A stretch of 63,169 nucleotides of DNA, the filler included, from Reclinomonas americana ATCC 50394 (lineage: Eukaryota): the NCBI GenBank assembly GCA_048213135.1. It is 4 parts of 3 records of this genome, joined end to end, with 100 filler letters (N's around TTAATTAATTAA, not from the genome) between each part and the next. Parts side by side here need not be neighbours in the genome. Positions count along the whole stretch, not along the records: positions 1 to 26,845 come from PS015238.1; 3 more parts are not named here. One strand, 5' to 3'. Positions 1-38,321 of this stretch are shown in pieces; the first letter of the stretch is position 1; each line of letters starts with the position of its first letter. Below the pieces are notes generated by a model. That model worked only from the letters and a program-made list of their open reading frames with translations. It was not told the DNA's origin and did no database searches. The translations under genes were made by a program, and so were the position numbers.

Positions 1-196
<196 letters not shown>

Positions 197-471
197 TCGA
201 ATGAGGAACAGGGTTTCGAGAAGAAGGGAGTGTGCATGCATTTGAGTGCGCGAATATGTGAGCGAGTGAATGAGGGAGCAAACACGTGTGCGCGCGCATG
301 AGTGGGAGAGAGAGAGAAGAAGAAGAGAACAAGAGACAAGTGCAGATGCATGACAGAGAGACAAGTGAGGATATCAACTGCTCACGATCATGACACACAC
401 ACACACACTCCCGCTCCCACTCCTTCCCTCCCACTCCTCCCACTCCCCACACAACACACAAACACACACAC

Positions 472-1172: not shown

Positions 1173-4100
1173 TTACAAGTGATGGCCGCCGCTTGCGTGT
1201 GCGTGATGATCGTCGCTGTCGTGGCGATTGTCGGCGTCGTGCTTTTCCGTGGCGTGACCGCCTTCTTCTTCGTCGTGGTGGCCCATGGGAAGCAGTGGGA
1301 TGTGCAGCGCGGAGGAGCCGGACGACGCTCGGGCACGACTGTGGCTGTGCGCTGTGCAAAGAAGATGAGATTGGTGAGGTGTGTGCACGTGCAATCTCAT
1401 AGCAAAAAACAAACGTACCTGTGGTTGGCGCATGGCTGTGCTGGTCGTGGTGCTCGCCATGGTGCTCGTCGTGACTGTCATGGTGGTCGTCGTCGTGTCC
1501 GTCGTGCTCCTCGTGATGGCCGCCGTGCTTCTTCCTCTTTTCCGGGTTCCACAGTTGCGACACGACCTCCCACAGCTTGTACAGCACCGGCAGCGCGAGG
1601 ATAAAGGCAATGGTGGCCATGATGGCCAAGCACGTGTACTTCTTGAAGTCGAGCGACACTTGCGAGGCGAACAGTGTGGAGATCACCACCAGGCCACCGA
1701 GCCCGATTGACTGTTGCGCGCCACTCGTCAGCTCACACGTGCACACACCTATACACACACTCTTACGTGCAAACCTCCAACACATTGTCGACGGTCGTGT
1801 GGTAGGCGCGGCAGCACAGGTGGACAGTCAGGAACGCCACACACACGCACCACAGAGCCAGAGGGAGAACTTGCAGCTGATTGCTGGCCGCCAGCGGAAA
1901 GAGAACACCGAGTACCACCAAGCGACGCGTAAGCTGGTATCCTTGGTACCACACGAACGTCGGGCGGAAGTGATGGTACAAGTGGCCGTAGCTGCGTACG
2001 ACCTGTGGCGTGCACCATCGTGAGATGCCAGCACAATCATTGACATGCACGGGGCCAGGCAACTCACCGCACGGTTGTGCAACAAGTGCCGTCGCTTCAA
2101 ACGCAGGGTCCACAAGATGACAAGCACCGGAGCCGAGAGGGCCAGCGCACCGAGAATGGCAAACAGCGGCACCAAGTTAGTCCATCTGCGTACCCGTCGT
2201 GAGTATGCATCATCACCAGCAGACAAGCAGTGAGTGCTGTGCGAATCCACGCAACATTCCCTGGTAACACACAATGCTGGGCGAGAACAGCACGACACTC
2301 GACTGTCCAACTGGCGTGCACGTAAAGAATGTAATAACCGTCTCTGCCACACCCTCGTACACAGCGAGCGCCAGCACGACGGTGGTGGCCTTGTACATCG
2401 GCACCGATGCACCCTTGTCGAACCACACCGCGAAGCGATGCATACGACCGGGACCGGAGCAGCACCATCGGCGCATGAGCCAGCCGAGGAAGCGGTGAAG
2501 CAGCCAGGTGAGCCACAGAATGATGACATAGAGCACCGGTGACACGATGCGACTTAGCATGTCGCCCATGGCGTCGAGGTGGAATGGACAGCCAATGTCG
2601 AACAGGTGCGGAATCCAGAAGCTGACCAGTCGGCCAAGCGCCACCAGCTCCACGTTGGGATAGAAGAGGAGTGTGGTCGTTTGCAGCAGGAAAATGAGCA
2701 TTTCAGCCGCGGCTGCAAGTCAGCGTGAGCAGCGCGACACACACACATGCACGCCCTCGCGACACGCTCACAGCACCTTCACCACCGCCGCCGAGGAAAA
2801 GCATGTGTACAAAGACCACAAACACCCACATCTTGAAGACGGTCCATGCGACGGCACCAATCGAGGTGGTGGCGCACGGAATGCAGTCGCCCTGCCACTG
2901 CGAGAATCCGGCCTGCAAGCAGAACGCACGTGAGAGGAGAAGAGCTCACGGCAGCACTTGGAGAGCAAATAAGGGAGCGCGCGCACCTGACAGGCGCCAC
3001 ACATGGTGGAGTTGGCCAGTCGGTTCGTCTCCTCGTTGCAGTACTCCGAGTCGGAGCCGACCGGCTCGTCGTCATCTCTTTCGCAGTAATCAAAGGGGCA
3101 AATGTAGGCCACCAGGAGACCACTGGCATCGGGTAGCACCTGCGAGCCGGCAATGCCACCGGAGAGCACCGACAGTGTGATGGAGTCGTCGTCGACAGGG
3201 AAGGCCCAGTAGTTGGACAGCACCGACACCGGATCGCCCAACTGACACACCATGTTGGGCGGGCACGGCTGACACGTCTGATTGAAGGCCACGCTACCGA
3301 GAGCGTACTGGCCATTGGGGCACGCCTGACAGCCGACACCGTCGACATACGCGGTGCCGCCTGGGCACGGCGAAACATCGATGGAGATGGAAGGCGACGA
3401 ACCGCCAAATGAACCGCCGCCCACATTGCTGATCGTGAGTGGGAAATCAGTCGAACGGGTGTCGAGCATGGCGAGGTGACGCGCGCGGGAATGCGTGTAC
3501 GACAGTTGCTGCTGCACGGGTGCCATCTCCACCACCGAGATCTCAAACGTGGCTGTGCCGGCAACTGTGGCTTGAAGATCCTCTTGATCCTGTTAAAAAT
3601 TACGCACACATATACACACTGTCATTTCGGAGAAACGGGAGCGCGAGGCATCGAGACGCGCGCTGCTCACCGCGGCCGCGCAACCAGGGCAGTTGATCTG
3701 AAACACGGCGCCATTGTACGTCGTCATGGGCTGGTTGAACACATCGGTGGCGTTCACCAACAGCGTGCGCGGAATCTGACTGCTCGGATACGTCACCGAA
3801 CCCGGAACCAGACCGGCTGTCACTGTCCACAGAGCTGCAATGAATGACGAGAGAAACACATGCGTAAGGAAACGTGCAGCAGTGGCGAATTTGGTGCAAG
3901 GCGACGAGCACGCAACAGCTGGCCACATCATTCGCCTCATAATTCGAGGCCAAGTTGCTGGTGACCAACACGCCAAGCGACTGCATGTAGTTTGTCCAGC
4001 CACCCGCCAATAGCACTGCACTCGCCATGGAGCTCAGTAGCGACGGATCCGATCCACCGTCCCAATAGATGCCACCGCCTGCACCGGAACCCACCGAGTC

Positions 4101-7100
4101 GGGCATGCCAAAGGCGGAATTGAAGGAGAATGTCGAATCACGTAAGCTGATGCCAGCACCGCTCGACGTCGACGTCGGGGCTGAAAGGGACACGTAGAGG
4201 CCACCTCCACGACCCGCGTTCGCCGTGTTACCGGTGAATGTGGAGCTGACAATGTTCACGGCTACGACGCTCTCAACGTACGCTCCGCCGCCGTCGCTCT
4301 GAGACGCAGTGTTCGATGTGATCATGCAGCCCGTGCAGTTGAATATGCCACTGCCAGAGGCAACAATTCCTCCACCATACGATGCGGCCGTGTTACCGAC
4401 AATAGTGGTACCGGAGAGCAGTGAAATCACCTGGTTGCCAGTGTACAGAGCTGCTCCGAATTCGGCGCTGTTTTGCGCCAGTCGAGCACCCACCAACGAG
4501 AGAGTCGACGACTCAGTGGCACAAATACCGCCACCCCCACCGAGGCTGCACGAGTTGCTACCAATGTAGGCACCGTTCAGCGAGACAGTGGTGGTGCCGG
4601 TGATGAAAGCTGCACCCCCCTCCAGCCCAGACCGTCCGCCGACCAACGTTCCGTCCACATCGGACCACGTACTGAGGCCAGTGAGTGTCAGGTGACCGCC
4701 ACTTGTGCCCGCTGCATTGCCCGTAAAGGTAGAGTTCACCGTGGTGATCGAGGCCAGTTGCGAAACAGCCAATCCACCACCCGACAGCGCCGCCGAATTA
4801 CCAGTTACGTTGCAGGCGCGCAAATTGACAATGGCAGCGCCTTCCACGTAGAAGCCACCACCGTCGGCGCGTGGCGCGTAATTTGCGTAGATCACCGTCG
4901 ACGTCAGATTGTGCACACTGCTGTCCGACACAAAGAAACCGCTGCCAAATGTTGCGCGATTGCCGTAGAGACTCGCGTCTTGCCACACCGATGCAGAGTT
5001 GGAGTCGGAAAAGACTGCGCCTCCAAACTGCACTGCCGTGTTGTTGTGCACCCTGGATAAAGTGAACACTGACAACGTCGATCGCTGCGTGAGATACACG
5101 CCACCGCCTCGCTCGCCAGCCGCATTGCCGTACACAGCTGTGTTGTTGACGAGATTCAATTGCGCCAAGTTGGAGATAACAGCCGCACCACCACCCAGCA
5201 GAGCTGTGTTGGCCGCCACCACAGTGTTCGAGACGGTAGCAGTGGAGGCAGCCTCCGCCAGCAAGATACCACCACCAAAGCCGAGGACAGAGTTATTCTG
5301 TACGCTACTATTTTCTAGGACATTCTCCAAGTCACTCAATAGCACACCACCGCCACCGTACTCCGCAGAATTGCCACTGATGACGGCACTGGCCAGGCGG
5401 GAGCGTGTACCCATCAACACACCGCCGCCCATCGCCAAAGGTCCACTGACAGAGTTGCCAATAATAGTGCAGCCGCTGGATGAACTCACCGAGTACAGCA
5501 ACAAGGCGCCACCGCCACACGATGTCCCCGCCGCCACCTCAGGCGACAGGAGCACTGCGCTGTTGGCCGAAAAAGTCGACGAGTTGATCTGCACTCCGTT
5601 GAATGTCAAAACACCACCGCCACCACAATAGTCGCCGGACGAGTAACGACGCAGGAGTTGGAGCGCCTGCTGCCCGCCGATTCCGGGATCGATGGCTGTG
5701 TTGTTGACAAACGTGCACGAGGAGATCACAGAGGGCGCATTCAACACCATCAGCGCTCCACCTCCGTTGACCGAGCTGCCTTGCGAGTTGAGCAAGTTGT
5801 TGTTGCCGCCTGATCCGTCATGGTACGAAGTATTGTTGGTGAAGGTGCTGCCGGTCAGCGAGAACAGAGCCTGCATGGACGATGAGCGACGACTGTGTGG
5901 TATTAGTCGAGCAGGTGACTGACGTACCTGAGGCGACGCCAAGAATGGTGCCGAAATGAGTGCACCACCGCCACCATTGAGGCCACCGAATGAGGCGCCG
6001 AGTGACTTGGAGTTGCTGCCACCAGAGCCATTTTGCCGGGACTGATTGTTGACGAACACGGCTCCACTAATCGTCTGCGTTTGGCGTATGTGTGTACAAG
6101 TTGCACGATTGCGAATGAACAACTCGCATGCTACTCACCGCCTGTCCAGGCAGCGTGCCAACCCCATACAGAAGCAATCCTCCTCCACCGCAGTACGAAG
6201 CTGAGCTGGAGCCGGAGCCCACATTCCCGCTCCCACCGTTTCCTGCACCTCAAGCACATCAGCGCTCAACGCTCTCTCGATAGGGTCGCTGTGCAACGCA
6301 CCATTTTGCGCCGCCACGTTGTTGGTAAATGTGACTGCCGACATCTACACGACAATGATTTCGTGTGAGGAACACCAAGGAAAAAAAGAAGCTTGCAATC
6401 TGGACGCCACCTGCACCACGCCCGAGTACGTCACCAGCAGCGCTCCGCCACCATGCGCAAATCCAGTAGCGTCGCCGCGATCCGTACTGCCATTGCCGCC
6501 ACCACCGTTGCCGACTGCCGAATTTCTGGTGAAAGTCAGTCCAACCATGGACTGGACACATATGCACAATGTGAGCGACTGCTCGTCAAATGCAAGGAAC
6601 CTATTCGGTAGCACTCACCAGCGTGGTGTTTTGGAAAGCAGAGAGAAGTGCTGCACCGCCACCGCAGGTGCCACTGGACGAATTCGCAATGGTTGAGTTG
6701 GAGCCACCGCAGCAGGACGATGTCACACTGTTGCTGTCAAAGACGCAGTTGCTGATCAACTACAGTACCATGATCACTTATTAAGATATCGACAGCAATA
6801 GCATCTTAAGGTGACAGGAAACTGCACCTGACTTCCGGCCCCGTATTGGACCATTATGGCGCCGCCGCCACTGCTTCCTTCCTCACTCGACACATCGTAC
6901 GCGATACCTGAGCACAGCAGTTTCATATGGAGAACAGCGACGCACGCGTACACGGACGGCACAAACCGCCATTGCTACTGCCAGTCACAAAGTTCCGTCG
7001 AAAGACGCAGTTGTCAATCACCTGCCGACAGCAGTGTCAAGCATCACCCCCCATGCCCTCCTTCGTGTGAGTATGCACTGACCTGATTGCCCTGAGTTAC

Positions 7101-10100
7101 GAATTGCACGTTGAGTGCGCCGCCTCCACAGTATCCACCACTGCCACGCGCTGTGCCCAAGGTGGCTTGTAATGCAGAGCCTGTGTAGCGCGGATGAGAG
7201 CCGAAAAACATGGAGATGATGAACGCAGGCAGACGGCGATGCATGCCACACCAGCTGTGCCCGCTTGGGAGACGGAATTGTCGAGAAACTGGGAGCCGGT
7301 GATGGTCTACGATAGAACGAGCGAATTCAAATGAGTGTGACAGGTTTATCTCTCTTTCTCTTTCTTGTACGCACCTGATTTGCGGCTACATTAAAATACA
7401 CGAACATGGCTCCGCCCCCGTTTCCTCCACCATTGCTGTTCGCGGAGGCCGACGACTGCACGTTGCTGGCATAGCCTGCGAAGAAATGAACACAACGACC
7501 TGCAAGTACAGAGGAAGGCAGGTGGACGAATGCACACACGCACCTCCGCTGCCACTCCCAACAGCAGAGTTGTTGAAGAAGGTGCAGTTTTGCGTCAACT
7601 TTTTTTACGCAGCAACACGCGTGAGCAACAAACATGCGTTTCGTGTAAAACTCGAAGGAGCACACACTGTGAGAACCTGCACGGCGGTGCCATAAAAGAA
7701 GACATTGACTCCGCCTCCCCCGTCTCCACTGCTGTACGAGTCCGCAAACGACGACGTGCCGCCGACACCTGCCACTGGCGAGTCGGCAAACAGCATCAAC
7801 ACGAATGCACGTGGCGGCGTACGAAACTACTGCCACCAGCACCATCCATCGTCGACAGATTGTTGGCAAACGTGCAGTTGCTCATGATCTGCACCACGGG
7901 CAACAATGTAAACCCAGCAGCGCGCGCATGTCCTTCGCTGACAAAGATAGAAGCAAACCTGCGAGCCATTTCCATTGAAAAATACAAAGGCGCCGCCACC
8001 ACCGCTCGTGTACCCGTTGGCCACGGACGTCACAGAGCCAGTTAGAAAGAACCCATTGGCGAGACCTGCAAACAGACCCATCATCATTCAGTGATCAATT
8101 GAACACGCTCATCATGGCGAGGCGTAACACAACCTCCTGCGCCATTGTATGACGATACGTTCGACGTGAAGTCCGACGAAGAAATGTACTGCGCACAAGC
8201 GAGATCAGCTCACGACACGCGATATTAAAGACGCATGTGAAACAGACCTGCGCGCTGGTGTTGTAAAAGAGGACCCACAATCCACCGCCACCACTCAGCG
8301 ACGCAGCTGAGATGGCACTCGACGGACCCTGGTTGAGCGAGGTACCTGCGCAACTCAAGTGAGCAGAGGAAGCACGCACGCACGCCAGCGGGCACCATGC
8401 ACACACACACACACCTCCGGCACCGTTGAACGCGGCCGTATTGCTGGTGAACGAGCACCGAGTGATATTCTATATTCAACAATGAGTGAATAGGCTCCAG
8501 CCACAGCACAAAAAACAGGCAACACGACGACTGCCGGCGCCCCACCTGACTGCCAACATTGTTGAACAAGGAGAGGACTCCACCACCTCCGACCATACTC
8601 GACGACGTATCAGTCACCACTTGATTTGTCGCCAACACATTCGTTGCTTGTGCTACACACGAGAGAAGCACATGAGTGAAGAAGGAACAGAGGAAGAGAG
8701 AATGCGAAAGCACACTACCTTGGCCGCCACTGCCGCATCCAGTGGCCGAGTTGAGCGTGAACAAGCTGTCTGTAAATGTCTGTGACGATTTGAACCAACG
8801 GCATGAGAGCTCTTGGCACACATGCGGAAGAGAGAGGGCTCGGCGGCAGACACGCACCTGGTTGGCATTCTGGTTGAATGCAGCGAGCATGCCACCACCG
8901 CCGCTGACAATCGTGAGAATCGTCTCTGCGAGTGCATTGCCGCCATTTGTTGCCGTAGCTTGCAAATCGCCAACGGTATTAGCACGACGAGGAGTAGAGG
9001 GGGAGGCAGCACAACAACCAAGAGGTAGCTTACCAAGTCCACCACTGCCACAGTTTAGAGCCGTGTTGTTGCGAAACACTGTCGACCCGATACTCTGCAT
9101 ACAAGTCAGCGACACACCGCACCAGCCGACCAACCTCAGTTGAATCACGTAGATGTACCTGTGCGCCGTTGGTATTCATGTAGAGAAACAGGCCGCCACC
9201 GCCAGCGGTTCCGCCCAAACTGTGCGCGGTGGCTACACCGGCGCCAGTGACCGTGGCTGCATCGATCCAGCACAATCAGCACACACCCACATCCGCAGTA
9301 TTCATCTTGTTGTCCACTCACCAGTACCGCCTCGACTGTTGCCACTCGAGACATTGTTCGTGAAGAAACTGCGCGTGACCACCTGCACCACACAAGGGTT
9401 GAGAGGCAAGCAAGGCGATTGCTTTGTTGTACAGAGAGACTGCCGCACCTGACTGCCAAGACCGTACGCCACAGCCCACAGACCCCCACCACCAGCGAGA
9501 CCTGTGGCACAATTAGCCGACGCCGTGTTGGCGACGGTCGTCGCGTTACCTGGGGAGCCCGAAATGTATCAGAGGCGGACAGTGAAACGATACACCAGCG
9601 ACAACATACCGCCACTGCCGTTGTTGATCGCCGTATTGGCGTCGAATGTGCATCGATCAACGGTCTGCGGTTTGCAAAGTCAGCGACAGGGATCGAGAAG
9701 TGGAAACCCAAGAAAATGCACACATACCTGTTGCATAGACTGGGAGAACATGGCATTCAGGCCTGCGCCACCGTGGAATCCACCATTCGAGTTTGCCGAT
9801 GCACTCTGCGCGCCCATCGCAGTGCCTGTTCCCCGCGTCATGAGCGACAATAACCCAGCAGCAGGCACAGTACAACTGTCATCTTCTCACCGCCAGAGCC
9901 ATTGCCGGTGGCTGAGTTGCGCAAAAACGAACTCGCTTGCACTACCTAAGCGAGCAACGCCTCTGAGGAACCACGCACCCCCCGACGCAAACAATCTTCG
10001 ATACCCCCCCACCTGTGTGCCAGCCACCTGGAAGAAGGCAAGAATGCCACCTCCACCGGTATGTTGCGCTGCAGTGTCGGACACGGCTGTGGGGCTCGAA

Positions 10101-13100
10101 GTGATGCGGCCACCGACGCCGTTGTTGCTGGCCATATTGCTCACAAAATAGCAATTTGTGGTGTTCTGAGAGAAAAACTCGCGTGAGCGCGACGAGCGAC
10201 AGGAGGCAGCGCGTGCACGATTCGCACCTGGAAAGCAGTACCCCCGAAACTGGTCCACACGCCTCCACCACCGCTGGTGTTGGCACCACTTGTCGCCACC
10301 GCCGCGCCCCCAGAGTTCGAGATTGAGCCTGTGCGCAACAATGAGCAGCAACATTACCATAAGGAGGAGACACAGCTGCGCACCACCCGCTCCATTGGCA
10401 GCAGCGACATTGTCGGTGAAATTGGAGTGCGTAAAGGACTGTTTTGGGTGAAAGGAGTGAGAGAAAGAACGCACTCATAGCAAGTATCCCCCCACACGTA
10501 CTTGCGAAGCAGTGGAACTAAAGTATGTCCATACTGCGCCACCGCCATTGCCGACACCGTTGGCTTCAGCTGTCGACGACAGCGTGCCACTGGCCACACC
10601 TGCGCACGCGGGAAAAACAATTTGAATGACATATACACAGCACATACACAAGCGATTTGCATGCATGCGCACCGCCGTTTGCATTGCCCGACGCAAGATT
10701 GGAAGCCACGGTTGAATTGGAAATGGTCTGTCGGCGGAGGGAAAAACTACGTGATGAACACCGCCAAGGTGCATGAAAAATATGTGCGAATGCAAACCTG
10801 CGAGCCGGCACCGGTGAAGTACGACCACAGAGCACCGCCGCCGCTGAGGCCGCCGCTCGCGCTTGCAGCCTTCTGACCTTGCCCAGTGGCCGTGCCTGTC
10901 AAGCCCACGAGCTGAGGCGACCGACATGTATCACAGATCATCAACACACGGGCCAACGACTCACCTCCGCAAGCGTTGCCGGTTGCGCTGTTGCCCGTGA
11001 ACATGCTGTCGGTGATCAGTTGAGTGCCAGTGCCCGTAAAGTTCGCCCAGATGCCGCCACCGCCACTGAGCGATGCACTCGCCAAGGCAGTTCCACTGCC
11101 GTTGCAGGTGGATGTGCCTGCACGAGGAGACAAGATGACACTCAATACATAAGTTGACAGAGATGGCGGCGGCCCCTCGCACACGAACCACCCGACGCAT
11201 TGTTCGTGGCGGCGTTGAAGGTGAAATTCGACGCAGAAGTCACCAGTGATCCATTGACATCGAACCGGAGCCACATGGCGCCGCCGCCATGACTGCCACC
11301 ACCGCTGTTGGATGTCGCTCCGCCGTATGTGCCGGAGGCCGTCGAGTTTCCTGCCAAGCACAACAATGCAGTCGAGTGAGACTCCTGACCGATTTGCACG
11401 ATCTCCACAATCGAACACGAACCGGCATTGCCATTACCCATGGCCACATTTGACTGGAAGCTGGATCTGCTTGTCAGCTGCGCACACATGGGAAATTTCG
11501 AGACATCGTGAGCGCGAGTAACAAGTCGTGAATGAGCACCGACCGACTGGCCGCACCTGGTTGCCACCCGCAGCAAAGCGCGTCCACACAGCTCCACCCC
11601 CGTTGCCGACACCGTTCGCGCCAGCGGTGACCAGCAGGCTGGTGACACCCGTGGCTACGATATCAATGTGCACGTCAGAGAGACGCGATGGTGAACAAGA
11701 ATACCAGTTTACGCACAGTTACCACCAACTCCATTCGAGATGGCACCGTTGCCGAGAAAGACGCTATCGGTAATGGTCTGTGACCAACGGAGAGGGGCAC
11801 CATGAATCACCAACCACGGACAATCACTGCAGCTCTTCGACCACCTTCCTCGCCGCACCTGCATGCTGCTTACTCCGGCAAAGTGTGACCACAGACCTCC
11901 ACCGCCGCTAGAGCCGGTGCCGGAGCTGGCAGTGGAACTGGTGACACCGCCCGAACACAATCCACCCGCACCATTCAATTCGGCGCGGTTACAAGAAAAC
12001 GTCGCAAGCGACAGAGTCTGCGCATCATTCGTGAGTGGCGGCGACGTGGGGATAAGAGACAGAAATGGCAGACCTGGTTGCCGCCCGCAGCAAAGTACGA
12101 CCACAGCGCGCCGCCGCCATTTGCAGAGGTAGAACTGAGTGTGCTAGCCAGATTGCCCGACGCAGTGCCTGCATCACTGGTGGGCACGGCGGAAGGATGG
12201 CATCATTACACAAGGAGACACGAACGTACCGCCATTGCTGTTGCTCCATGCAGTGTTGTTTGAAAAGTTGGTGGAGTCGACCATCTGCCACCAGCGTATG
12301 AGTACTACCACCAAGCAACGCAGGGGATGAGCGGAGACGAGGGAAGCAACCTGCAAGCCAAAGGCGCCAAAGTAGACCCACGCAGCCCCACCACCTGCTT
12401 GTCCGCCAGTGCTCTCTGCAAACACAATCGTGCCAGCGAGTGCCGTACCTCCGTTGCAGTTGAGAGACGCGGTGTTGGAGGTGAATGTGGATCTCGAAAT
12501 GACCTGCGCGCGCTTGTAGTGTCAAGACAGAGCAGGAGAAAATCGCAGTTGTGTGATAGTGGGTGGAGATTCATGCATACCTGGCTTCCAGTGCTACTGA
12601 AATACACCCACAGAGCACCACCACCAACTGCAGCGCTGGCACTGTCCGCCGCTGATGTCACAGTATCCAGCGATATGCTGGTCGCAGCACCTGTCGGCAG
12701 TCACATTATCAGAAAAGACCCCTCCACTCGATAAGAACACACAGAGCGACAACTCACCACCGACACCATTCGACGACGCACTGTTCATCGAGAAGGTGCA
12801 GTTGGCAATGGTCTGCGCACTGCCACTGACGGAGAAATACGTCCACAGACCACCACCACCGACGTTGGCGCTGTTGCTCGAGGCCAGAGCACCTCGTGCC
12901 AGGCCATTTGCAGTTCCTGCGCAGGGCACGTTGGTGAGAGGGAGGAGAGGGAGGAGAGGGAGGGAGGGTGAGCGAGGGGAGAGAGGAGAGGGAGGGGAGG
13001 GAGAGAAAGACAAACATATAGACAGGCAGGCAGACAGACAAACAGAGAGAGAGAAAGAGACAGAGCAGCCAAGCACAGAGAGTGTTCGTGAGAAAACAAA

Positions 13101-16100
13101 CAGATTGAGAAACAGAAAGAGAAAGAGAGACACATAGACACGTATACACACACACGCACCACCACCACAATTGTTACTTGCAGAGTTTCGCAGCATGGTG
13201 CAGCCCGTGATTGTCTGCGTGGGGAGCGCAAGTGAGCTTTTTTTGATTGCGTGTTAGACAGAAGGATCCCCCAACTCGCACCTGACTGCCAGTTCCGTAA
13301 AAGACCGCTGCCAATCCTCCGCCACCCGAGTTTCCACCGTTGTTCGCCGCCAAACTTTGCGCAGAAGCAGAGACTCCAGAGGCAACACCTGAGTGGAACT
13401 GGCGCATAAGGGCATCGACACAGCGCGCAGAGTGAAACGGAAGATTACTCACCGCCGTTTCCATTGTTGACAAAGAGGTTGTCCGTAAAAGTACAATTCG
13501 TGAGAGTCTGCCACGCATCATGAGCACGCAAGCAAAGCAAACACACAGTGTGTTCTCTCATTCAGGAAACGTACTTGAACATTGTTATTATAAAAGTAGG
13601 TGAAGAGACCACCGCCACCGAGATTGCTGCTGGAGCTGTCGGCATTGGCGATTCCGGCGGCAGACGCAGACCCTGGGCGATAGTGCGTACAAGCAATTGA
13701 GACTTCTCGTACACAGACTTGAGCTGCGCAGAGATCACGAACCCGCATTGCCAGTACCCGAGACCACATTGCTGGAGAAGACTGTGTTGTCGAGCGACTG
13801 CGCAAACACAGATAATGTGAGCGAGCCTCGAAAAGAGAGAGAGAGAGACTCGAAATCTCGTGCCTGGCTGCCGGCATTGTTGAAAAACACCCACATGCCA
13901 GCGCCGCCAATAAACGACCCACTGCTCCCGGCAGACGATGTCGAGGCAATATTCATGTCACCCGTGGCCGTGGCCGTCCCTGCGAGACTCGTCAGGACAC
14001 TAGACGACAATGCAAGTGCGACGCGTGTCGTCCCCTACCTCCGTTTCCACACGATGTTACAGCGTTGCTGGCAAATGTGCAGTTGCTGACCACCTGTTGT
14101 GCGCACAGTTGGTGGACCACTGCTGCTGCCTCGCGCGAAGAACGCCACTCACCTGTTGCCCAGTGTTGCCAATGAATGCCAGTGACACGCCGCCGCCACC
14201 ATGGTAGCCGCCACTGGAGATCGCCAAAGTGTGCGTGCCGCCGAGTGCCGAGCCTAAAGGTGGTGGGCGTTATGTCAGGTGAGGAAGACAGTGGTAATCA
14301 GAGCATGATGCGGGTACTGACCTGCATTTCCGGAGCTGTCGACCGTATTGTTGAAGAAGCGACACGATGACAGCGTCTGCAGGATGGCAAGCATGTGAGG
14401 GGCATAGAGGCGAGAGAGCGAGAGGACCAGCGCACGGTGCAGTACCTGCGAGCCATTGCCACCAATATTTACAAACACCGCGCCTCCACCGTTGGTGCCT
14501 CCAGAGCTGGAGGCAGAAACCTGACTGCCGGTGCCTGCACACACAGACAAGACACAGGGGGGGTGATTACTGACGATCATTTCTGCTTCGCATCCGAACT
14601 TGTCAACGTCGCAGTGTACAAACCCCCGTTGCCACTGAGGGACACACGATTCCTGATGAATGCAGAATTACTCAACACCTGCACGCACAAGAGCGGGGCA
14701 TTAGAACTGTGGAGAAAGAGGCAGGAGGATCGATACAAAGTGCACCTGCGCAGCGTTGGCATTGGAAACCAGCATAATCGCACCACCACCGCAATTGCCG
14801 CCCACACTGTTGGCCGTTCCAGTGGCACTCGCTGCGACGACGAGTGAGAAGAAGGCACATCGTCCGCGGAGACAGCAGACGCCACGGACGTACATCTTCC
14901 TGCGTTGCAATTGTTGAACGCCTGATTGCCGGTGAATGTGCCATTGACGACACTCTGCACCGCCGCCATGACAGTTGGACGCGCGCCAAAACAAACAAGT
15001 AAGCAACCACACACACCTGGCTCCCGTTGCCGTTGCTCAGCGTCAGAATAGCGCCACCACCACTGAACTGCGACTGGCTGTCGGAGGCGATGACCGTGGT
15101 GCTCGTCGACGCATCACCTGCATTTCCCCCGGGAAGACGTATTACTTCCCACAGTCTTCTTTGTGCGAGCTCAGAGAACACGTACCACCGTTGGAATTGC
15201 TGTAAGCTGCGTTGCCAGTGAATGTTGTACTCGTCACATTCTGCCACTGCGCAGCACGACACGGAGGTTGAGCGACATCCCGCGCGCGCACATATACAAA
15301 CACATATATACCTGAGCAAGCTGAGTGAGAGCGCTGGGAAAGAATGCAAGCACGGCACCGCCACCGGCACCTCCCGCAGTGGACATGCACGACGCGCCGT
15401 TGCTGTTGCCACCACGACCATTGGACAAGGCCATGTTGCCGGTAAAGTCGCTGCTGATAATCTGCGAGGTGGTGAGGGACAATGACGAAGACGACAAGCA
15501 CAAGCCTCACGGACCTCGTGCAACAGTGACGTGACGAGCGGAGCGGAGGCGAATGAGAGCCACAGAGCGCCACCGCCAGAGGCACTAATCGGCACCGGGA
15601 GCGCCAACTGCAGACCGACACTGGTCCCGCTTTGCGTGTTGCCGCTGCCGCCGCCAGCATTGTTGCTCGCCACGTTGGCCACAAACTCGCATCCCGTCAC
15701 CTGCAAGTACGATTTTGCAGTCAACGAATCGTGCAACGCGCTGCCACCGGTGGCCGCACACAGACACACCTTCAAGTTGACGACGCCGCCCACCCACACT
15801 CCACCTCCTCCGCATTGCGTACCAGAGTTCCCCGAGCCCTGCACGTTGCTGCCACCTCCGCAGCAGCTGTCCACACGATTTTGCGACACGGTTGTTTGTG
15901 AAATCTGCGAATCAACGACACATGAGCAGAAAGAGAAGCAGACGGAGAGGGTGATCATACTAAACAGTCACAGTCGGTGAGGAAAGCGCGGCTGCCATCT
16001 GAATCCACACCGCACCACCTCCACTCTGCTGCCCACCGCTGGCCTGCGTGCCGGTGATGCTGCATGGACCTGGCAGTACAGGACACTGCACGCCGTTGCT

Positions 16101-17457
16101 GCTCGACAACAGCGCGTTGCTGTCAAACGTGGAGCCTTGCAGGGAGACGGTGCTGGCCTGTTGGACGCACAGAGCGCCTCCACCGACCCCGTTACTCCCG
16201 TTGGGCGACTGCGAATCACCATTGCCACAGCCGCTGACAGTGTTGGAACTCCACAGGCTGCCGACATCCGACACGCTGACCGACAGCGCATCCGTCACAT
16301 ACACGGCGCCGCCACCGTTGGAGGGACCATACAGGTTGACGGCCGAGTTCCCCTGGAAGGTGCAGTTGGTGGCCGAGAACACAACACCGCCACCACCGCC
16401 CTGCACAAACACAGCGCCACCCCCCGCCCCGCCAGTGGCACCAGCGGCCGACCCCGCCGTCGGCCCATGCACCGCATTGTCTACAAATGTGCAGTTGCGC
16501 ATGGTCACCGACGCTCCTCCAAGCAGGCCAGCTCCCACACTCAACGCAGCACCGGATGCACCAGCGCTCTGCTTGATGCAGTCCGCAAACGTCGACGACT
16601 CCACCGACACCGTGGCAAAATGGCCGCTCACTGACACCGCCGACGAGGCGAGGCCGGCGGCCGATCCTCGGTGGTGCGCAAAGTTGCATCCGCTGATGGT
16701 GAGTGAGGCCGTGCCCGCCAACGCCGTGGCGTCGAGCGCCACTGCACCGCCGAGAGAGCTGGAGAAGGTGGCATCGACGATGCTCACTTGTGCCACGGAG
16801 CCGGGAGTGGGCACCGCCGACGTCCACGACACAACTGGCGACGCCGCCGAACCGCCGACCACAACAAGCCGATTGATGGTGAATGCAGACGAATCGTGCA
16901 CCGACACGAGAGCGGTGGTGGAGGCCGGCGAGACTTGCAGCACGGCGGCGGTGGCCACCGGCGGTGGCGTTGTCAGCGTCACATTGTGACCTGAGAAAGA
17001 GAGTGAGAGCGTGTTCTCACACACACACATGCATTGATGAATCGAGACAAGACGACGGCACCGGTGATGGAGAGCGAGGTGGTGCTCGCCAGCGTGTAGG
17101 TGCCCTCGGCAAAGAGCACCTCCAGTGCCCAGTCGAGCTGCACGAGATTGTAGTGACGATCTGTGCACGATGCAATAATGACCGATGCGTCACACGGTGA
17201 TGCGGCGCTGGAGCCGCATGGTGTGGTAGTGGAGCCGGTAGGCGACACATAGACTGGAGGGGGGGGGGGGACTGACGAGTGAGGGGTTGCGTGAAGCGGT
17301 GGACACTAAGATTATACAGAAGACCTTGGCAGAGAGGCGAGGGCGATGCCGCAGAGACGCTCAGAGGTATGCACAGAGACAGAGAGAGGAGAAGGAGGAG
17401 AAGGATGAGAGGAGGAATGTGGAGCGGTGGGTGTAATCGTGGTGGTGTTGTCGTCAT
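1173..17457 (-). CDS. Giant multi-exon surface protein: signal peptide, Pmp-like (GGA/FxxN) beta-helix repeats, Cys-rich region, multi-pass TM domain, His-rich tail
   Basis: Hydrophobic leader (LILLLLLLSLSLCIPLSVSA), then VYVSPTGS..CG..PC. Dozens of FxxNxA...GGG(A/G)(L/V/I) repeats follow. CxxCPxG/CPxxYC/CGAC motifs lie at ~2880-3380, several hydrophobic segments at ~1570-2860, and a His/Asp-rich tail ends in TAA at 1173. Introns are in consistent phases wherever checked. Confidence 0.85.
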
Positions 17458-18623: not shown

Positions 18624-20034
18624 TTAGGTCGACAGATCCGAGCACACGTACACCACATTGTTCTGCGCCGCAAAGCCGTTGAACGACGATGCCGACGCGC
18701 GGGTGTAGGCGCCCATCTCCTCGTACACAAGCCAGTCGCCGGGCGACACGTCCTCCGGCAGGAGGATGTTGTCGGCCACCACGTCGACCGAGTCGCAAGT
18801 CGGGCCAAAGATCTTCGAGTTCACCAGCGGCACCTTGCTCGTCTGCGCGAGGTACTGCGCCTGCGGGTCGGCGCGCAGCGGACGAGGCACTGGCTTCTGG
18901 TGGTCGTACATGATGCAGTTGAACGACTGGTACACGCCGTCGTCGACAAACAGCACGTTCTTGCCGTGCACCTTCTTGCGGCCCTGCACCGAGGTGACGA
19001 GGGTGTGCGAGGCGGAGCAGAAGTAACGGCCGGGCTCGGCAATGACGCGGACGCCGCTGCCGGCGGGGAAGTGCTCCTCAATGGCGCCAGCGAGGTTGTT
19101 CGAGATGTCCTCAAACAGGTTGCTCTGGGTGCCAGGGAAGCCACCGCCCACGTCGAGCAGGTTCATCGAGAAGCCGCGCACCGCGGCCATGTCGAACACG
19201 GCCTTGGCGTCGGTGATGGCGCGCGAGAAGGCCGTGGGGTCGGTGCAGAGGCTGCCGACGTGGAACGACACGCCAATCACGTTGAGGTTGAGCTCGCGGG
19301 CCGTGTCGAGCAGGCCGGGCACCATGTCGAGCGGCGCACCAAACTTGGCGCTGAGGTTGCACTTGGCCGACGCACCGTCGGTGGCGATGCGCAGCACCAG
19401 GTCGGCGCCAGTCGGGTACAGGCGCGCCGTCTTGTGCAGCTCGGCCTCCGAATCAAAAGTCATCATCGTGACACCGACGTTGCGGGCGTGGCGCAGGTGC
19501 GACGTCAGCTTGCACGGGTGAGCAAAGATGATGCGGTCGGGCGTCACGCCCTGACCGCAGTTCAGCACCATGTCGATCTCCTCCTGCGAGGCGCAATCGA
19601 ACGAGGCACCGAGGGCCGCCAAAGTGCGCACCACCAGCGGGTCCGGCAGCGACTTGACGGCATAAAAGGTCTCCACGTTGGGGAGACGCGTGTGCCACTG
19701 GCGATACTGGCGGATGACTGTGGCCAGGTCGCACACGTAAAAGGCGTCTTCGCGGGGTGCCGCAACGCCATTGGGCAAAACGTGATTGTCGATAAGTGAA
19801 CGCAGGAAGGCCTCGCTGTTGACGGCGGGCACCTCCGGGCCGAGCACACTCACTCCATGGGCCTCAAAGAGGGCGCGGAGAGAGGCCGGCAGCTGGTACA
19901 GGGCGCTGGGGGGCACAGGCTGGCCATGTGGCACATTGTGGGCGTTGAACGCCGACGACTGCAGCAGCGGTCCATCGACGACATTCGCGCGGCGGTGGTT
20001 CAAGTCGAAGAGGCGACTCTCAAAGTTGGAAGTG
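18624..20034 (-). CDS. ODC1: Ornithine decarboxylase (fold III PLP decarboxylase); 5' end lost in gap
   Basis: Motifs FYAVK (PLP lysine), FDCAS, GVSFHVGS, LLDVGGGFPG, EPGRY, GPTCD, MGAYT and SFNGF. One long exon, preceded by a polypyrimidine/CAG acceptor ending at 20035. Confidence 0.95.
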
Positions 20035-20131
20035 CTGTGGGAGGAAGGAAAAAAGTGAGCATCATGCAACAAACTCAAACGGTCACGCAGTGCAGCAGTG
20101 GGCGCGCGAGANNNNNNNNNNNNNNNNNNNN

Positions 20132-20719
20132 GCGTTCCGCATACAGCACAGGTGCGGAGCGTACGTGTGCCATGCATGTCCGATCGGCCGCACTTGTGTC
20201 TCAACACGCGCACATACAGAAACGCGCGAGGCGTTTGGTGGCTCCGGTGGCGTGATGAACGGAGTGGCCAGGCACGCCGACGATTTCGACCGCCGGTCGC
20301 GAGTCTCAGTCAGCAACAATGAGAATCCACCGTATCCGGGCAACACGTTGCGTTTGTCGCCTCGATGTTCTCGGCAAACGCAACATCGCTCACTGCCGAT
20401 CTACACACAGACTGAACGATCGCTTCACGACGGGCGGATTGGACGATGGCTACGGCCGCCGACCAGCCACTGCCGACCGCGGTATGAACACGATGCCCGA
20501 TCGTGATGCCGAAGAGCGCCAACCAGGTACGCAGAGGAGAGAACGTCGTCGGGTTTACAACATGCATGATGATGAATCAGCGCTCCTCGACACGCAGGCA
20601 GGGAAATAAGCAAGCTGGTGCGAGCCGACGATGTCCGTCGCGGTTCCGACTCGCCGTACGACAAGATGGGCGACTTCCGTCGGCCCAACATCCCCATCCT
20701 GTCGTATCAAGTTCAGTGA
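20132..20719 (+). CDS. 3' exons of an unknown protein; 5' part in or beyond the gap
   Basis: Three GT-AG introns (donors at 20161, 20347, 20527) splice in frame to ...EQTREAFGGSGG...NTLNDRF...QPGREISKLVR...PILSYQVQ*, with TGA at 20717-20719. Confidence 0.7.
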
Positions 20720-20924: not shown

Positions 20925-23167
20925 ATGAAGGCGCTAGTCACCCTTTACCAGTCCATATGTCAGCGAGAGAGAATAAGGGTGCGTGTGTATGTGTGTGCGT
21001 GAGGTGACTCTCCGTGTGAAAGAACTCACAGTGGTGATATGATCGCACAGCCGATCCGGCGAGTGGAGGCAGTGCTGGAAATGTACGATGGCGCACACCA
21101 GGCAGTGCTCGACTGCGACGATGAAGACGTGCAGGATGCCGTTGCGTGCACTTCCCTCACACAGTCGACGCCATTAGCAGTGATCACTCAATTGTGTGTT
21201 GATCAGGGGGCGATTGCACTGATCGAGGTTCTCACTGTGCAACGCCTTCGCGTGGAGCAACTCTCGCTGGCGCACAATCGACTCACCGATCGCACGGCGG
21301 CGATGCTGTCAAGTTATCTTGTGGCCAACGATCCTGTGCTGGTGCGACTGTCGCTGCGGCAGAACGAGATTGGGGTGGAGGGTGTGTCCAAGTTGGCGCG
21401 GGCCCTGCCCAAGATCACACGCCTGCGCGTACTCCATCTCGACAACAATCGTTTCGGCGCCGATGGCGCTGTGACGTTGGCGGTGGGGCTGGAGCGAAAT
21501 CGCTCACTACAGACTGTGACACTGCGCTCCAATGTCATGGGCGATCTCGGCATGCTGGCGTTTGTGGCTGTGATTGAGAACAATCGCACGCTGACAGAGC
21601 TTGACCTGTCGTACAACGCGGCGTCGGATGACGAGACCGTTTCGTCCATGGCCAAGGTACGTCGATGACGTAGGTGATGGTCATGCATTGCCGGCAGTTG
21701 CTGATCTGGCATATGGTACACAGGCACTGTCGGGCAATCACGTCATGTGTCGCCTGTTGCTGGCCGGCAATCGCTTCAGCCCGACGGTTTTGGATCCACT
21801 CGCACGGCAGCTGCGTCGCAACGAGGAACTGGCCATGTTCCAGCGCCAGGAGTCGATTGCCGAGCGACCGCAGCGGGGAGTGGGGCGTGCGCCAGGCGGC
21901 AGCGGCGGCAGCGGCGCTGGTCCCTCCAGAACAACCCCTTCATCTGCAGCCGCACGGAGCAATGGCAGAGGAGAGTTTGCGGAGGAATCTGCGGTCGACC
22001 TCAACCCGGCGTCACAGGGTGCTGGTGGCACCTTGGTCCGCAACGGCCGGGTGTTCGTTGTCAGCGGTCCACAGGATGCGCAGGGGCTCGGCAGTGATCA
22101 GGGCACCTCTGCCATGCTCGACGATGCGAGCGAGATCTCCACAGAAGCCGGGTCGTCACCCCGTGCTGCCGGCAGTGGTGCTGTTCTTGACAATGGCACC
22201 GTAGTTCTCAATCGGTATCGCGTAACCGGTCTCAGCGATGCTCACCGCGAGGAGGAGAGTGGCGGTCAGACGGTGCACCATGTTGACTATTTTGGCATCG
22301 ATCTGGACACCGACGAGCGAGTACTCATCCAAGTGTGCACCGACGCCAAGTATCTGGCTCGGTGCGTCGCAGGTCGTGATGCCGATCGACGTGTCACTGC
22401 TTGCTGATCTCCCACTATTGTACTTGCAGACTCATGCAATACTCTGAGGTTCTGTCGCCTGCTGGTGCCTTGCCGCCTCTCCTGCAAGGCGGTAAGCATG
22501 CGGGCGTGTTCGTGGCCATCAATCCTCGCCCGTTCGACACACTGGAGGAGTACATCAATCGGGTCAACTGCGTCGACGACCCGCTGGCATCAGTGACAGA
22601 CGATCTGATTGGCATTGTGCGCACACTGACGCAGCTGAAGTTGGTGTGCATCGACCTCACTCCTCTGTGCTTTCGGCGATATGCCGAGAGGTATTCTCTG
22701 TCGGGCATTGACAAACTGCGCAAGGTAAGAGGCAATGGGCGAGGCTTCAATTCATCTGCTGATCTGTTCCCCTTCTGCTCCAAGCTTGAGCATGCGCGTG
22801 ATGTTCCGCTTCACTCGTTTACCGTTTACACCGCGCCTGAACACCTGGTGCAAGTGGCCAGCAATCCGCTAACCAGACTTGTCACCTTCACGCCCGAGTC
22901 CATCATGTGGTCGCTCGGCATCGTCGTGTTGCACATGCACGTGCCAGACATATTCCAACAGTACCGTTCGTTGCAGACGTTCCTGGAGAGTCTCATCACC
23001 GGTACGTAGGCCTGCGACAGCCGCAGTGGCTGCCACCAGCGAGCTCACCGAAGTACACAGATGACTTCCGACCCGATCTCGATCACCTCGTGGAGGACTT
23101 GCGAGTTCGTGATTTTCTCCGCGCTGTTTTGCAACATCGGCCCGTCGACAGAACCCTACGGTGGTGA
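20925..23167 (+). CDS. Ribonuclease-inhibitor-type LRR protein with a C-terminal degenerate protein-kinase-like domain
   Basis: ATG at 20925 (MKALVTLYQSICQRERIR|PIRRV). LxxLxLxxN repeats with ~28-aa period at 21240-21790. Kinase-like motifs VLIQ, VCIDLTP, YTAPE, SIMWSLG and the terminal R of RPVDR. Six GT-AG introns. Confidence 0.8.
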
Positions 23168-37909: not shown

Positions 37910-38321
37910 ACAATGCAGTGATTGCCGTTCGGAAGTCCCCGAGGACTTCGTTCATGGTCTTGACGTCAGGTGCGAGGCCTTCTCAGTGCATGGTGGACAA
38001 GTGCGAACAGCTGTGGTTGTTGCTCTCCGCCACCGCCATTGCTTTCAGTTTGCATGATAATCGCCATCGTGAGTGCATGCGCACGCAGGGTGAATTCGAA
38101 TTCGAATTCGAACACCAGAAACGTGCACGCGTTGCTGCAAGAGAAACCACGGCTCGTAACAAGCATGGATTTGATGCCGAATTCCATGGCCAAGCAAGAA
38201 ATGCAGAAAGAAAGGAAGCCGCTTCATTCATCAAATTTCAAAAACGAGAAATATTAAAGCATGTCCGGCAAAGCTGAAGCCTTTTTCTGCATTCCTGTTT
38301 GGAGCTTCACTCCTTCGCACC

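What the first reader, a model, noticed from the sequence alone, without database searches (positions are those of the whole stretch)
6400..15245. About 30 phase-compatible two-exon cassettes encode the beta-helix: possible combinatorial splicing
Seen: each repeat splits into a short A exon (xxxxxxFxxNxAxxxGxG; phase 0 to 1; 55 nt in checked cases 15240-15186, 14678-14624, 14376-14322) and a B exon (variable Ser/Thr/Ala loop, GGGG, hydrophobic-W/Y-F, then GSQ; phase 1 to 0; ~90-120 nt). The introns are short and not obviously similar to each other. Any A can join any downstream B, and whole units can be skipped in frame. The loop sequences vary strongly. Inference: expansion by duplication of an intron-bearing unit, with potential for Dscam- or VLR-like diversification of a surface receptor by splicing or recombination.
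Basis: partly seen in the sequence, partly recalled or inferred. Interest (0 to 1): 0.72.

Follow-up and report, generated by a model that had tools for sequence, protein, structure and literature searches.

The report
Intron-split repeat array in beta-helix gene
A giant surface-protein gene of an unidentified protist builds the middle of its long beta-helix rod from about 38 diverged repeats, most cut by the same two short introns; this looks like an old tandem amplification, and nothing seen points to a splicing-based diversity system.

Summary
On the minus strand, one eukaryotic gene (ATG 17457 to about 1700) has 63 introns between 16011 and 5870 in my model (62 GT-AG, 1 GC-AG; median 67 nt). 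Splicing them gives 2,885 codons with no stop.

About 37 units of roughly 51 aa lie between 15904 and 5928:
- 28 are split by a phase-1 intron, in the same Gly codon in 21 of 28.
- 23 are clean A+B cassettes bounded by phase-0 introns.

Each unit is one Pmp-type beta-helix rung (FxxN...GGG[A/G]) plus a 12-23 aa Ser/Ala/Gly/Thr loop.

Amplification of an intron-bearing unit fits. It is old: units average 35% aa and 54% nt identity, and introns are no more alike than shuffles. Dscam- or VLR-like diversification rests on phase compatibility alone:
- no shared intronic pairing element was found;
- the longest exact match between units is 15 nt;
- no donor cassettes occur elsewhere in the window;
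- the flanking introns are short.

No RNA run was available, so splicing itself is untested. I rate it a new member of a known kind, of modest interest.

The parts
17325..17457 (-). Exon 1: ATG at 17457 and a hydrophobic signal-peptide-like N-terminus (133 nt, ends in phase 1). It is followed by a 53-nt GT-AG intron (17324-17272).
   Evidence: Read by eye from the three-frame translation and checked in frame. No signal-peptide predictor was run.
17062..17271 (-). Exon 2: Pro-rich linker and a beta-helix N-cap-like segment (VYVSPTGS...). It is followed by a 71-nt intron (17061-16991).
   Evidence: In-frame join with exons 1 and 3. The donor choice is by inference. No Pfam hit at E<=10.
16011..16990 (-). 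Long 5' exon of canonical, unsplit beta-helix rungs.
   Evidence: Pfam Beta_helix PF13229 at E 2.4e-7, 31 bits against a cut-off of 25.9. Exon limits.
15312..15904 (-). Three single-exon long-loop units at the 5' edge of the array: 15904-15770, 15700-15515 and 15461-15312. They are separated by phase-0 introns of 69, 53 and 65 nt.
   Evidence: Unit-profile scores of 8-25 bits make them more diverged than the core units.
6139..15246 (-). Core array. It holds 28 units split by the phase-1 intron (23 clean A+B cassettes), 5 single-exon units (12503-12351, 12017-11859, 10165-10013, 6759-6619, 6551-6417) and 3 B+A fused exons.
14094..14376 (-). One example cassette: A exon 14376-14322 (55 nt), phase-1 intron 14321-14254 (68 nt), B exon 14253-14153 (101 nt), phase-0 intron 14152-14094 (59 nt).
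13798..13863 (-). The only GC-AG intron (66 nt, 3n, stop-free). The programme had read through it.
   Evidence: Called by analogy with the other units; retention would stay in frame.
12917..13159 (-). Outlier 243-nt phase-1 intron carrying a CT-rich microsatellite.
   Evidence: The tandem repeat at 12936-13003 was found.
10965..11350 (-). Two consecutive B+A fused exons (11350-11189 and 11117-10965), where the phase-0 inter-unit intron is absent.
   Evidence: Their lengths of 162 and 153 nt equal a B exon plus 55 nt.
5928..6074 (-). Last single-exon unit of the array (147 nt).
3917..5870 (-). Long 3' exon. It starts with two long-loop units and continues with about 20 canonical rungs of roughly 27 aa.
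   Evidence: AlphaFold2 model: pLDDT 80.4, pTM 0.85, with three strands per rung. Homologues carry PF02415 or PF13229.
2987..3834 (-). Cys-rich stalk exons (3834-3671 and 3589-2987).
   Evidence: Model. Ephrin_rec_like PF07699 at E 0.011, below the cut-off. Collinear match to the Mesostigma protein P0252 at E 1e-4.
1766..2912 (-). Probable continuation of the gene: multi-pass membrane region. The exon limits are not settled.
   Evidence: Hydrophobic open frames 2719-2216 and 2176-1766. TRP PF06011 at E 9e-4, 18.6 bits against a cut-off of 28.5. Match to the PF06011-bearing P0252 at E 7e-5.

Best explanation
The region is the middle of one very large gene for a membrane-anchored surface protein. 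Its order is: signal peptide, a right-handed parallel beta-helix of roughly 70 rungs, a Cys-rich stalk, and a TRP-like multi-pass membrane domain.

The middle ~38 rungs are a derived unit type. Each is a Pmp-style rung (FxxNxA ... GGG[A/G]-hydrophobic) with a 12-23 residue Ser/Ala/Gly/Thr-rich loop inserted into the glycine turn. That loop is probably flexible and glycosylated.

An ancestral unit already carried two introns: a phase-1 intron in the Gly codon where the loop begins, and a phase-0 intron after the terminal Gln (CAG|GT). Repeated tandem duplication of that unit multiplied both the rungs and the introns. Most of the gene's 63 mid-gene introns therefore descend from two.

The amplification is old. 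Exons kept only the structural motif and introns diverged completely. A handful of introns were later lost precisely or shifted by two codons.

All units are most likely spliced constitutively, intron by intron, into one long rod. Phase compatibility is a by-product of the duplication history.

Shown: the exon-intron anatomy, the unit homology, the divergence and the fold of the 3' part. Inferred: constitutive splicing, the order of events, glycosylation and the function.
For: Anatomy: 63 introns and a spliced frame of 2,885 codons with no stop. There are 28 phase-1 and 35 phase-0 introns, median 67 nt. Intron positions fall in the column-19 codon in 21 of 28 units and after column 51 in 25.

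Amplification: a neighbour effect of 0.388 against 0.350, with 0 of 5000 permutations reaching it.

Age:
- Unit identity averages 35% and peaks at 54% at the protein level.
- Unit identity averages 54% and peaks at 63% at the nucleotide level.
- Intron-to-intron alignment scores are about those of shuffles (phase 1: -0.152 against -0.196; phase 0: -0.205 against -0.221).

Intron loss: the fused exons have exactly summed lengths of 153, 159, 162 and 153 nt.

Fold and family:
- PF13229 hits the 5' exon.
- 418 and 388 homologues at E<=1e-3 were found; the best 120 listed in each search are 22-36% identical, and many carry PF02415 or PF13229.
- The AlphaFold2 beta-helix model has pLDDT 80.4. The long-loop units score below 50-66.
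- The highest-ranked Foldseek matches are beta-helix proteins such as pertactin, Ag43 and PL6 lyases.

Architecture: collinear with the Mesostigma protein P0252, which carries PF20585 and PF06011.

No sign of selection on intron retention: length mod 3 is 19/19/25 (p 0.56), and 36 of 63 introns lack an in-frame stop against 31.3 expected.
Against: - No transcript evidence of any kind exists. The gene model comes from my own programme trained on the same gene, so constitutive splicing is assumed, not seen.
- Seven of 28 phase-1 introns are displaced by 2-3 codons. This needs splice-site shifts or indels.
- Exon ends match the proto-splice consensus (CAG in 27 of 35 phase-0 sites). That is also what independent intron insertion would favour.
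- Exons are short (median 98 nt), a feature that goes with exon skipping in other eukaryotes (PMC6142364).
- PF02415 itself is not significant on the tested exon (E 0.68).
- No Foldseek match reached E<=0.001.
- The organism is unidentified and no orthologous locus could be compared.
Confidence: 0.8

Rival explanations
1. Combinatorial or stochastic alternative splicing. Whole units are skipped, or an A exon joins a non-adjacent downstream B exon. The result would be rods of different length and loop content, a Dscam-like isoform repertoire.
For: - All 28 A-type exon ends are phase 1 and all B-type starts are phase 1, so every such join keeps the frame.
- One unit equals one rung plus a loop, so a shortened helix should still stack (inference).
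- Exons are short.
- Loops are the most variable columns.
Against: - Phase compatibility follows automatically from the duplication history.
- No shared intronic docking or selector-like element was found. Complementary matches of 10 nt or more occur in 10 intron pairs, each with a different sequence. The longest, 17 nt, pairs a CT-rich microsatellite with a GA-rich run.
- Introns are 53-89 nt long. Skipped exons in 65 eukaryotes go with longer flanking introns, and only bilaterians have raised skipping rates (PMC6142364, abstract and passages).
- Splice sites are uniformly consensus-like.
Confidence: 0.06
2. Independent, parallel intron gain. A pre-existing unsplit repeat array acquired introns unit by unit at the same proto-splice sequences (CAG|G and G|GT).
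For: - Exon ends fit the proto-splice consensus: CAG in 27 of 35 phase-0 sites and G at -1 in 57 of 63.
- Introns share no sequence.
- The flanking canonical rungs and 9 array units are unsplit.
- Seven phase-1 introns sit 2-3 codons off.
Against: - It needs more than 50 separate insertions at two homologous sites within one gene, with none at other positions of the unit.
- The narrow length range and the lack of any shared insert sequence argue against a recent burst of a mobile intron-generating element.
- Exon divergence (54% nt identity) is enough to explain why duplicated introns now look unrelated.
Confidence: 0.08
3. Recombination-based diversification. This would be VLR-like assembly, gene conversion, or rapid gain and loss of units by unequal crossing-over between repeats.
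For: The units are arranged in tandem, and the protein has a surface-exposed architecture with variable loops.
Against: - The longest exact match between any two units is 15 nt, and 1 of 703 pairs reaches 15.
- Units are not homogenised (maximum 63% nt identity).
- The gene is a complete open frame.
- No unit-like cassettes lie elsewhere in the 63-kb window.
Confidence: 0.03
4. Decaying or mis-assembled repeat DNA that is not a working gene.
For: No expression data could be obtained. The window contains masked stretches.
Against: - 2,885 codons across 64 exons contain no stop.
- Structural residues are invariant in 38 units.
- An intact signal-peptide-like start and a membrane region are present.
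- No N run lies inside the gene.
Confidence: 0.02

Closest known systems
Chlamydial polymorphic membrane proteins (Pmp; Pfam PF02415) and other autotransporter passenger beta-helices such as pertactin and Ag43
   Same: - Alternating FxxN and GGA(I/L/V)-type motifs, one pair per coil of a right-handed beta-helix. The motif definition comes from the abstracts of PMC10715098 and PMC11166332, seen in the search listing only.
- The motifs are present here.
- Homologues carry PF02415.
- Foldseek ranks pertactin and Ag43 among the top matches.
   Different: - This is a eukaryotic gene with more than 65 introns.
- It has a signal peptide with a Cys-rich stalk and a multi-pass membrane domain, not a C-terminal beta-barrel.
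- A 12-23 aa loop is inserted in each of about 38 rungs.
- PF02415 itself scores only E 0.68 on the exon tested.
Eukaryotic beta-helix plus TRP-like (PF06011) membrane proteins, for example the Mesostigma viride EukProt protein P0252 (2,884 aa; PF20585, PF06011)
   Same: The same order of parts: beta-helix, Cys-rich segment, membrane region. Local matches are collinear: 28% identity over the helix, E 1e-4 for the Cys-rich part and E 7e-5 for the membrane part.
   Different: - Identity is low.
- None of the 240 helix homologues held, P0252 among them, has a whole long-loop unit; only 3 of them hit the unit profile at all.
- Its exon-intron structure could not be seen.
Drosophila Dscam1 clusters of mutually exclusive exons
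   Same: Tandem arrays of homologous exons made by duplication, with compatible phases.
   Different: In Dscam-type genes one exon per cluster is chosen. Many use competing RNA pairings between selector sequences and a docking site (PMC6071210 abstract, search listing only). Here no shared intronic element exists. The units are successive rungs of one rod, not alternatives for one slot.
Lamprey variable lymphocyte receptors
   Same: A solenoid-repeat surface protein with variable inserts.
   Different: A VLR germline gene is incomplete and is filled in from flanking donor cassettes by a gene-conversion-like process. Here the frame is complete, no cassettes lie outside the gene in the window, and units share 15 nt or less of exact match.
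Repeat-protein genes whose introns multiplied by internal tandem duplication (for example fibrillar collagen 54-bp exons; recalled) and tandem exon duplication in general (PMC9013439, search listing only)
   Same: One exon-intron module is copied many times, giving uniform exon sizes and phases.
   Different: The module here has two exons, encodes a beta-helix rung plus loop, and occurs in a protist with introns of about 67 nt.

Membership tests
Pmp-type / right-handed parallel beta-helix repeat proteins (PF02415, PF13229) | Alternating FxxN and GGA(I/L/V)-like tetrapeptides, once per repeat | tested here: met
   F7 is nearly invariant. N10, G37 and G38 are invariant, and G39 and the [G/A]40 column are nearly so, in 38 aligned units. 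The motif definition is taken from the PMC10715098 abstract (listing).
Pmp-type / right-handed parallel beta-helix repeat proteins (PF02415, PF13229) | Pfam model hit above the gathering score | tested here: inconclusive
   - PF13229 passes on the 5' exon (31 bits against 25.9).
- PF02415 scores only 10.8 bits against 20.6 (E 0.68) on a 52-aa B+A exon.
- There is no hit on the 711-aa 3' frame.
- Homologues at E down to 1e-44 carry both families.
Pmp-type / right-handed parallel beta-helix repeat proteins (PF02415, PF13229) | Beta-helix fold | tested here: met
   - AlphaFold2 model of 4002-5870: pLDDT 80.4, pTM 0.85, with three strands per rung of about 27 aa.
- The highest-ranked Foldseek matches are beta-helix proteins, but the best E-value is 1.7e-3.
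- The spliced array itself was not folded.
Chlamydial Pmp autotransporters | C-terminal outer-membrane beta-barrel translocator | tested here: not met
   The C-terminus is a Cys-rich segment followed by hydrophobic multi-pass frames, with a sub-threshold TRP PF06011 match. No autotransporter family was listed.
Dscam-like mutually exclusive exon cluster | Docking and selector complementary elements shared by the introns of the cluster | tested here: not met
   Intron similarity is about that of shuffles. Complementary matches of 10 nt or more in 10 intron pairs are all different sequences.
Dscam-like mutually exclusive exon cluster | Only one exon of the cluster is present in each mRNA | not testable with these tools
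VLR-like somatic assembly | Incomplete germline gene plus flanking donor cassettes | tested here: not met
   The spliced frame is complete. All 62 unit-profile hits lie inside the gene, none elsewhere in the window. The rest of the genome is not held.
TRP-like membrane proteins (PF06011) | Pfam model hit above the gathering score | tested here: not met
   18.6 bits against 28.5, E 9e-4, on frame 1766-2176. It is supported only by a 63-residue match (E 7e-5) to a PF06011-bearing homologue.

The most novel reading that the evidence does not exclude
The array is read as a kit. Stochastic or regulated skipping of in-frame units, or joins between non-adjacent A and B exons, would give each cell or life stage beta-helix rods of different length and loop line-up. 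That would be a splicing-based surface-variation system in a protist, built on a solenoid whose geometry tolerates removal of any rung.
Probability: 0.05. Interest if true: 0.75.

Novelty: new member of a known kind. Interest (0 to 1): 0.3.

Why it matters
- It is an unusually clean example of intron multiplication by internal duplication. Most of the 63 mid-gene introns appear to trace back to two ancestral ones, and later precise losses and two-codon shifts are still visible. That makes it useful for teaching and for calibrating intron gain and loss models.
- It documents a eukaryotic giant Pmp-like beta-helix joined to a TRP-like membrane domain, a family with no studied member that I could find.
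- It warns that phase-symmetric repeat exons should not be read as evidence for combinatorial splicing.
- If unit skipping were ever shown, it would be a rare case of frame-preserving exon skipping used for surface variation outside animals.

Tried and rejected
- RNA evidence: no RNA holder was listed for 6000-15900.
- Whole genome: none is held for this window, so paralogues and copy number could not be checked.
- Earlier scan notes: none exist for this genome.
- Metagenome scan with the 3' exon protein: 1 locus (L001) at 27% identity, too distant to compare introns.
- Organism identification through the neighbouring ODC gene: the best hits are only about 50% identical (fungi and animals), so the taxon stays unknown.
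- Pfam on the 711-aa 3' frame and on the N-terminal frames: no family.
- Tandem Repeats Finder sees only a microsatellite, not the array, because the units are too diverged.
I used my own exact-match count instead.
- First model runs read through seven introns that are 3n and stop-free. A weaker intron penalty resolved five of them (15769-15701, 14445-14377, 11422-11351, 10964-10896 and 8715-8653) and also split off the exon pair 9945-9891 / 9825-9728. Two (13863-13798 and 9033-8959) were split by hand, and the donor at 14624 was chosen by analogy.
- The programme's 3' end beyond 2760 is unreliable, because the codon table was trained on Gly/Ser-rich repeats.
- Selection on intron retention: none seen.
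- Higher-order periodicity and a special relation between the two consecutive fused exons: none.
- Profile of 11 single-exon units against 1.84 billion proteins: 140 hits at E<=1e-3, most matching only the first 18 positions. By my spliced-unit profile, 14 of those 140 have one whole long-loop unit of 42 aa or more. The six short open frames looked up (P0370, P0434, P0391, P0401, P0466, P0421; four of them among the 14) come from unnamed 1.2-3.6 kb run assemblies and are 27-46% identical to this protein. Their DNA could not be fetched.
- Complex prediction and the protein atlas were not used.

Full report
WHAT IS THERE

The window is eukaryotic DNA with short GT-AG introns. It contains 5,861 masked N, none of them inside this gene. 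Three-frame translation of the minus strand shows that the finding sits inside a much larger gene. A long open exon lies upstream (about 16990-16011) and another downstream (5870-3917). Between them are about 10 kb of short coding pieces that change frame regularly.

I wrote a splice-aware dynamic programme and iterated it. It used codon log-odds, donor and acceptor matrices, and exact handling of split codons. The first runs read through seven introns whose length is a multiple of three and that have no stop. A weaker intron penalty resolved five of them. I split two by hand (13863-13798, the only GC-AG intron, and 9033-8959). I also chose the donor that gives a 55-nt exon at 14678-14624.

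The resulting model between 16990 and 3917 has 64 exons and 63 introns. Its spliced frame is 2,885 codons with no stop. The model is computational and was trained on the gene itself. No transcript evidence exists.

THE CASSETTES

- Of the 63 introns, 28 are phase 1 and 35 are phase 0.
- 61 of 63 are 53-89 nt long, the median is 67 nt, and the two outliers are 106 and 243 nt.
- The consensus is (C/G)AG|GT(G/A)(C)GT ... (C/T)GCAG|. A YTNAY motif lies 8-45 nt upstream of the acceptor in 51 of 63.
- 23 exon pairs are clean A (phase 0 to 1) plus B (phase 1 to 0) cassettes. A is 55 nt in 15, 61 in 6, 64 in 1 and 43 in 1. B is 80-116 nt.
- Five further units have the phase-1 intron but share a fused B+A exon with a neighbour.
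- Nine units are single exons: three at the 5' edge, three at the 3' edge and three inside the array.
- In total, 28 of 37 units between 15904 and 5928 are split. Two more long-loop units open the 3' exon.

On a profile alignment of 38 units, the phase-1 intron falls in the codon of column 19 (an invariant Gly) in 21 of 28. It falls in column 21 in 5, column 22 in 1 and column 16 in 1. Twenty-five phase-0 introns follow column 51, an invariant Gln whose CAG forms the exon end.

A unit profile finds 62 six-frame hits, all on the minus strand within 5601-16142 and none elsewhere in the window.

WHAT THE PROTEIN IS

The 5' end has an ATG at 17457 with a hydrophobic signal-peptide-like start, a 53-nt intron, a cap-like exon and a 71-nt intron, all in frame.

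The 5' long exon matches Pfam Beta_helix PF13229 (E 2.4e-7). The 3' frame has 418 near-length and 388 longer homologues at E<=1e-3. The best 120 listed in each search are 22-36% identical. Many of them carry PF02415 (Chlam_PMP) and/or PF13229; most are bacterial or metagenomic and a few are eukaryotic (Mesostigma, Cymbomonas, Thecamonas, Aphanomyces). PF02415 itself is not significant on the one exon where the motif pair is contiguous (E 0.68).

AlphaFold2 on 4002-5870, with 39 homologues as the alignment, gives pLDDT 80.4 and pTM 0.85. The model is a regular three-strand rung of about 27 residues. The highest-ranked Foldseek matches are right-handed beta-helix proteins (pertactin, Ag43, PL6 lyases, tailspikes), although none reaches E<=0.001.

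In canonical rungs the N.A and GGG motifs are contiguous. In the array units they are separated by a 12-23 residue loop (S 22%, A 16%, G 14%, T 12%, only 4% charged). That loop begins exactly at the phase-1 intron. The two long-loop units included in the model have low confidence, which fits flexible loops. The array carries 46 N-x-S/T sequons in 1,961 residues.

Downstream lie Cys-rich exons (sub-threshold Ephrin_rec_like) and hydrophobic frames with a sub-threshold TRP PF06011 match. A 2,884-aa Mesostigma protein that carries PF06011 matches these two regions collinearly, at E 1e-4 and E 7e-5.

I read the whole as a secreted, membrane-anchored rod of roughly 70 rungs on a TRP-like membrane domain. 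Its function (adhesion or sensing) is inference.

HISTORY OF THE ARRAY

- Units average 35% protein identity, with a maximum of 54%. At the nucleotide level they average 54%, with a maximum of 63%.
- Neighbours are slightly but significantly more alike: 0.388 against 0.350, with 0 of 5000 permutations reaching it.
- Introns of the same class align no better than shuffles.
- The simplest account is an old tandem amplification of a unit that already held both introns. Complete intron divergence followed, then a few precise losses (the fused exons have exactly summed lengths) and some two-codon shifts of the donor.
- The rival, more than 50 parallel insertions at two proto-splice sites, fits the CAG|G exon ends but is far less parsimonious.

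THE SPLICING AND RECOMBINATION IDEA

Every A-to-B join would indeed keep the frame, but that follows automatically from the history. I looked for anything beyond it.

- No shared intronic element. Complementary matches of 10 nt or more occur in 10 intron pairs and are all different. The longest, 17 nt, pairs a CT-rich microsatellite with a GA-rich run. Counts exceed mononucleotide shuffles (23 pairs with matches of 9 nt or more, against 3-13), which I put down to low-complexity tracts.
- No bias in intron length mod 3 (19/19/25, p 0.56), and no excess or deficit of stop-free introns (36 of 63 against 31.3 expected; 116 of 1000 shuffles reach the observed value).
- The longest exact match between units is 15 nt, and 1 of 703 pairs reaches 15. 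This is poor substrate for homologous recombination.
- No cassettes lie outside the gene.
- A survey of 65 eukaryotes reports raised exon skipping only in bilaterians. It links skipped exons to shorter exons and longer flanking introns (PMC6142364, abstract and passages). Here the exons are short, but the introns are about 67 nt.

No RNA run was listed, so isoforms are untested. I put regulated or stochastic unit skipping at about 5%.

RELATIVES OF THE UNIT TYPE

- Only 3 of 240 helix homologues hit the spliced unit profile, and none has a whole long-loop unit.
- A profile of 11 single-exon units, searched against 1.84 billion proteins, gave 140 hits at E<=1e-3. Seven were at E<=1e-10 and none at E<=1e-30. 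Most covered only positions 1-18.
- By my spliced-unit profile, 14 of those 140 contain one whole long-loop unit.
- Six short open frames were looked up (P0370, P0434, P0391, P0401, P0466, P0421; four of them are among the 14). They come from unnamed run assemblies and are 27-46% identical to this protein.
- Some read like single exons running into flanking intron sequence. That reading is my own, and their DNA could not be fetched.
- The unit type therefore exists in a few unidentified relatives but is rare.

VERDICT

The diversification part is unsupported and, on indirect grounds, unlikely. The finding is a new member of a known kind: a repeat gene whose introns multiplied with its repeats, and a eukaryotic Pmp-like beta-helix protein. 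Interest is modest.

Noticed in passing
window 18627-20309 (-): Intronless 561-codon open frame for an ornithine decarboxylase with a long N-terminal extension. A 20-N masked run lies inside it. The best database matches are only about 50% identical (fungi and animals), so the source organism has no close sequenced relative in that collection.
   Followed up: partly
window 43600-52100 (+): Pieces of an SMC-type gene (SMC_hinge PF06470, E 3e-7) separated by long CT-rich, low-complexity introns. This is very unlike the 67-nt introns of the beta-helix gene. Several parts are masked.
   Followed up: partly
window 36169-36924 (-) and 38234-39265 (-): Two neighbouring paralogous open frames with similar ends and Pro/Gly-rich repeats (PPPGAYPMPPPGAY type). 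Neither has a Pfam family.
   Followed up: partly
window 56827-57849 (-); 21003-21665 (+): A Galactosyl_T (PF01762, E 7.8e-11) open frame and an LRR_6 (E 4.1e-17) open frame.
   Followed up: partly
window 53199-54050 (-): Open frame with long His-rich runs (GHDHGH type) next to hydrophobic frames at about 54110-55530. By eye it resembles a metal transporter loop. No Pfam hit.
   Followed up: partly
window 6139-15246 (-), column 19 of each unit: The loop that distinguishes the 51-aa units from canonical 27-aa rungs starts exactly at the phase-1 intron. The loop may therefore have arisen in the ancestral unit by a splice-site shift that turned intron sequence into exon. This is speculation.
   Followed up: no
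window 15241-15252 and 14600-14623 (-): In-frame alternative splice sites. Two acceptor AGs lie 6 nt apart before the first A exon, and two phase-1 donors lie 24 nt apart after the third A exon. Which site is used is unknown.
   Followed up: partly
window 1-400 and many intergenic stretches: Abundant (CT)n and (CA)n microsatellites and masked N runs throughout the window (21 runs, 5,861 N).
   Followed up: no
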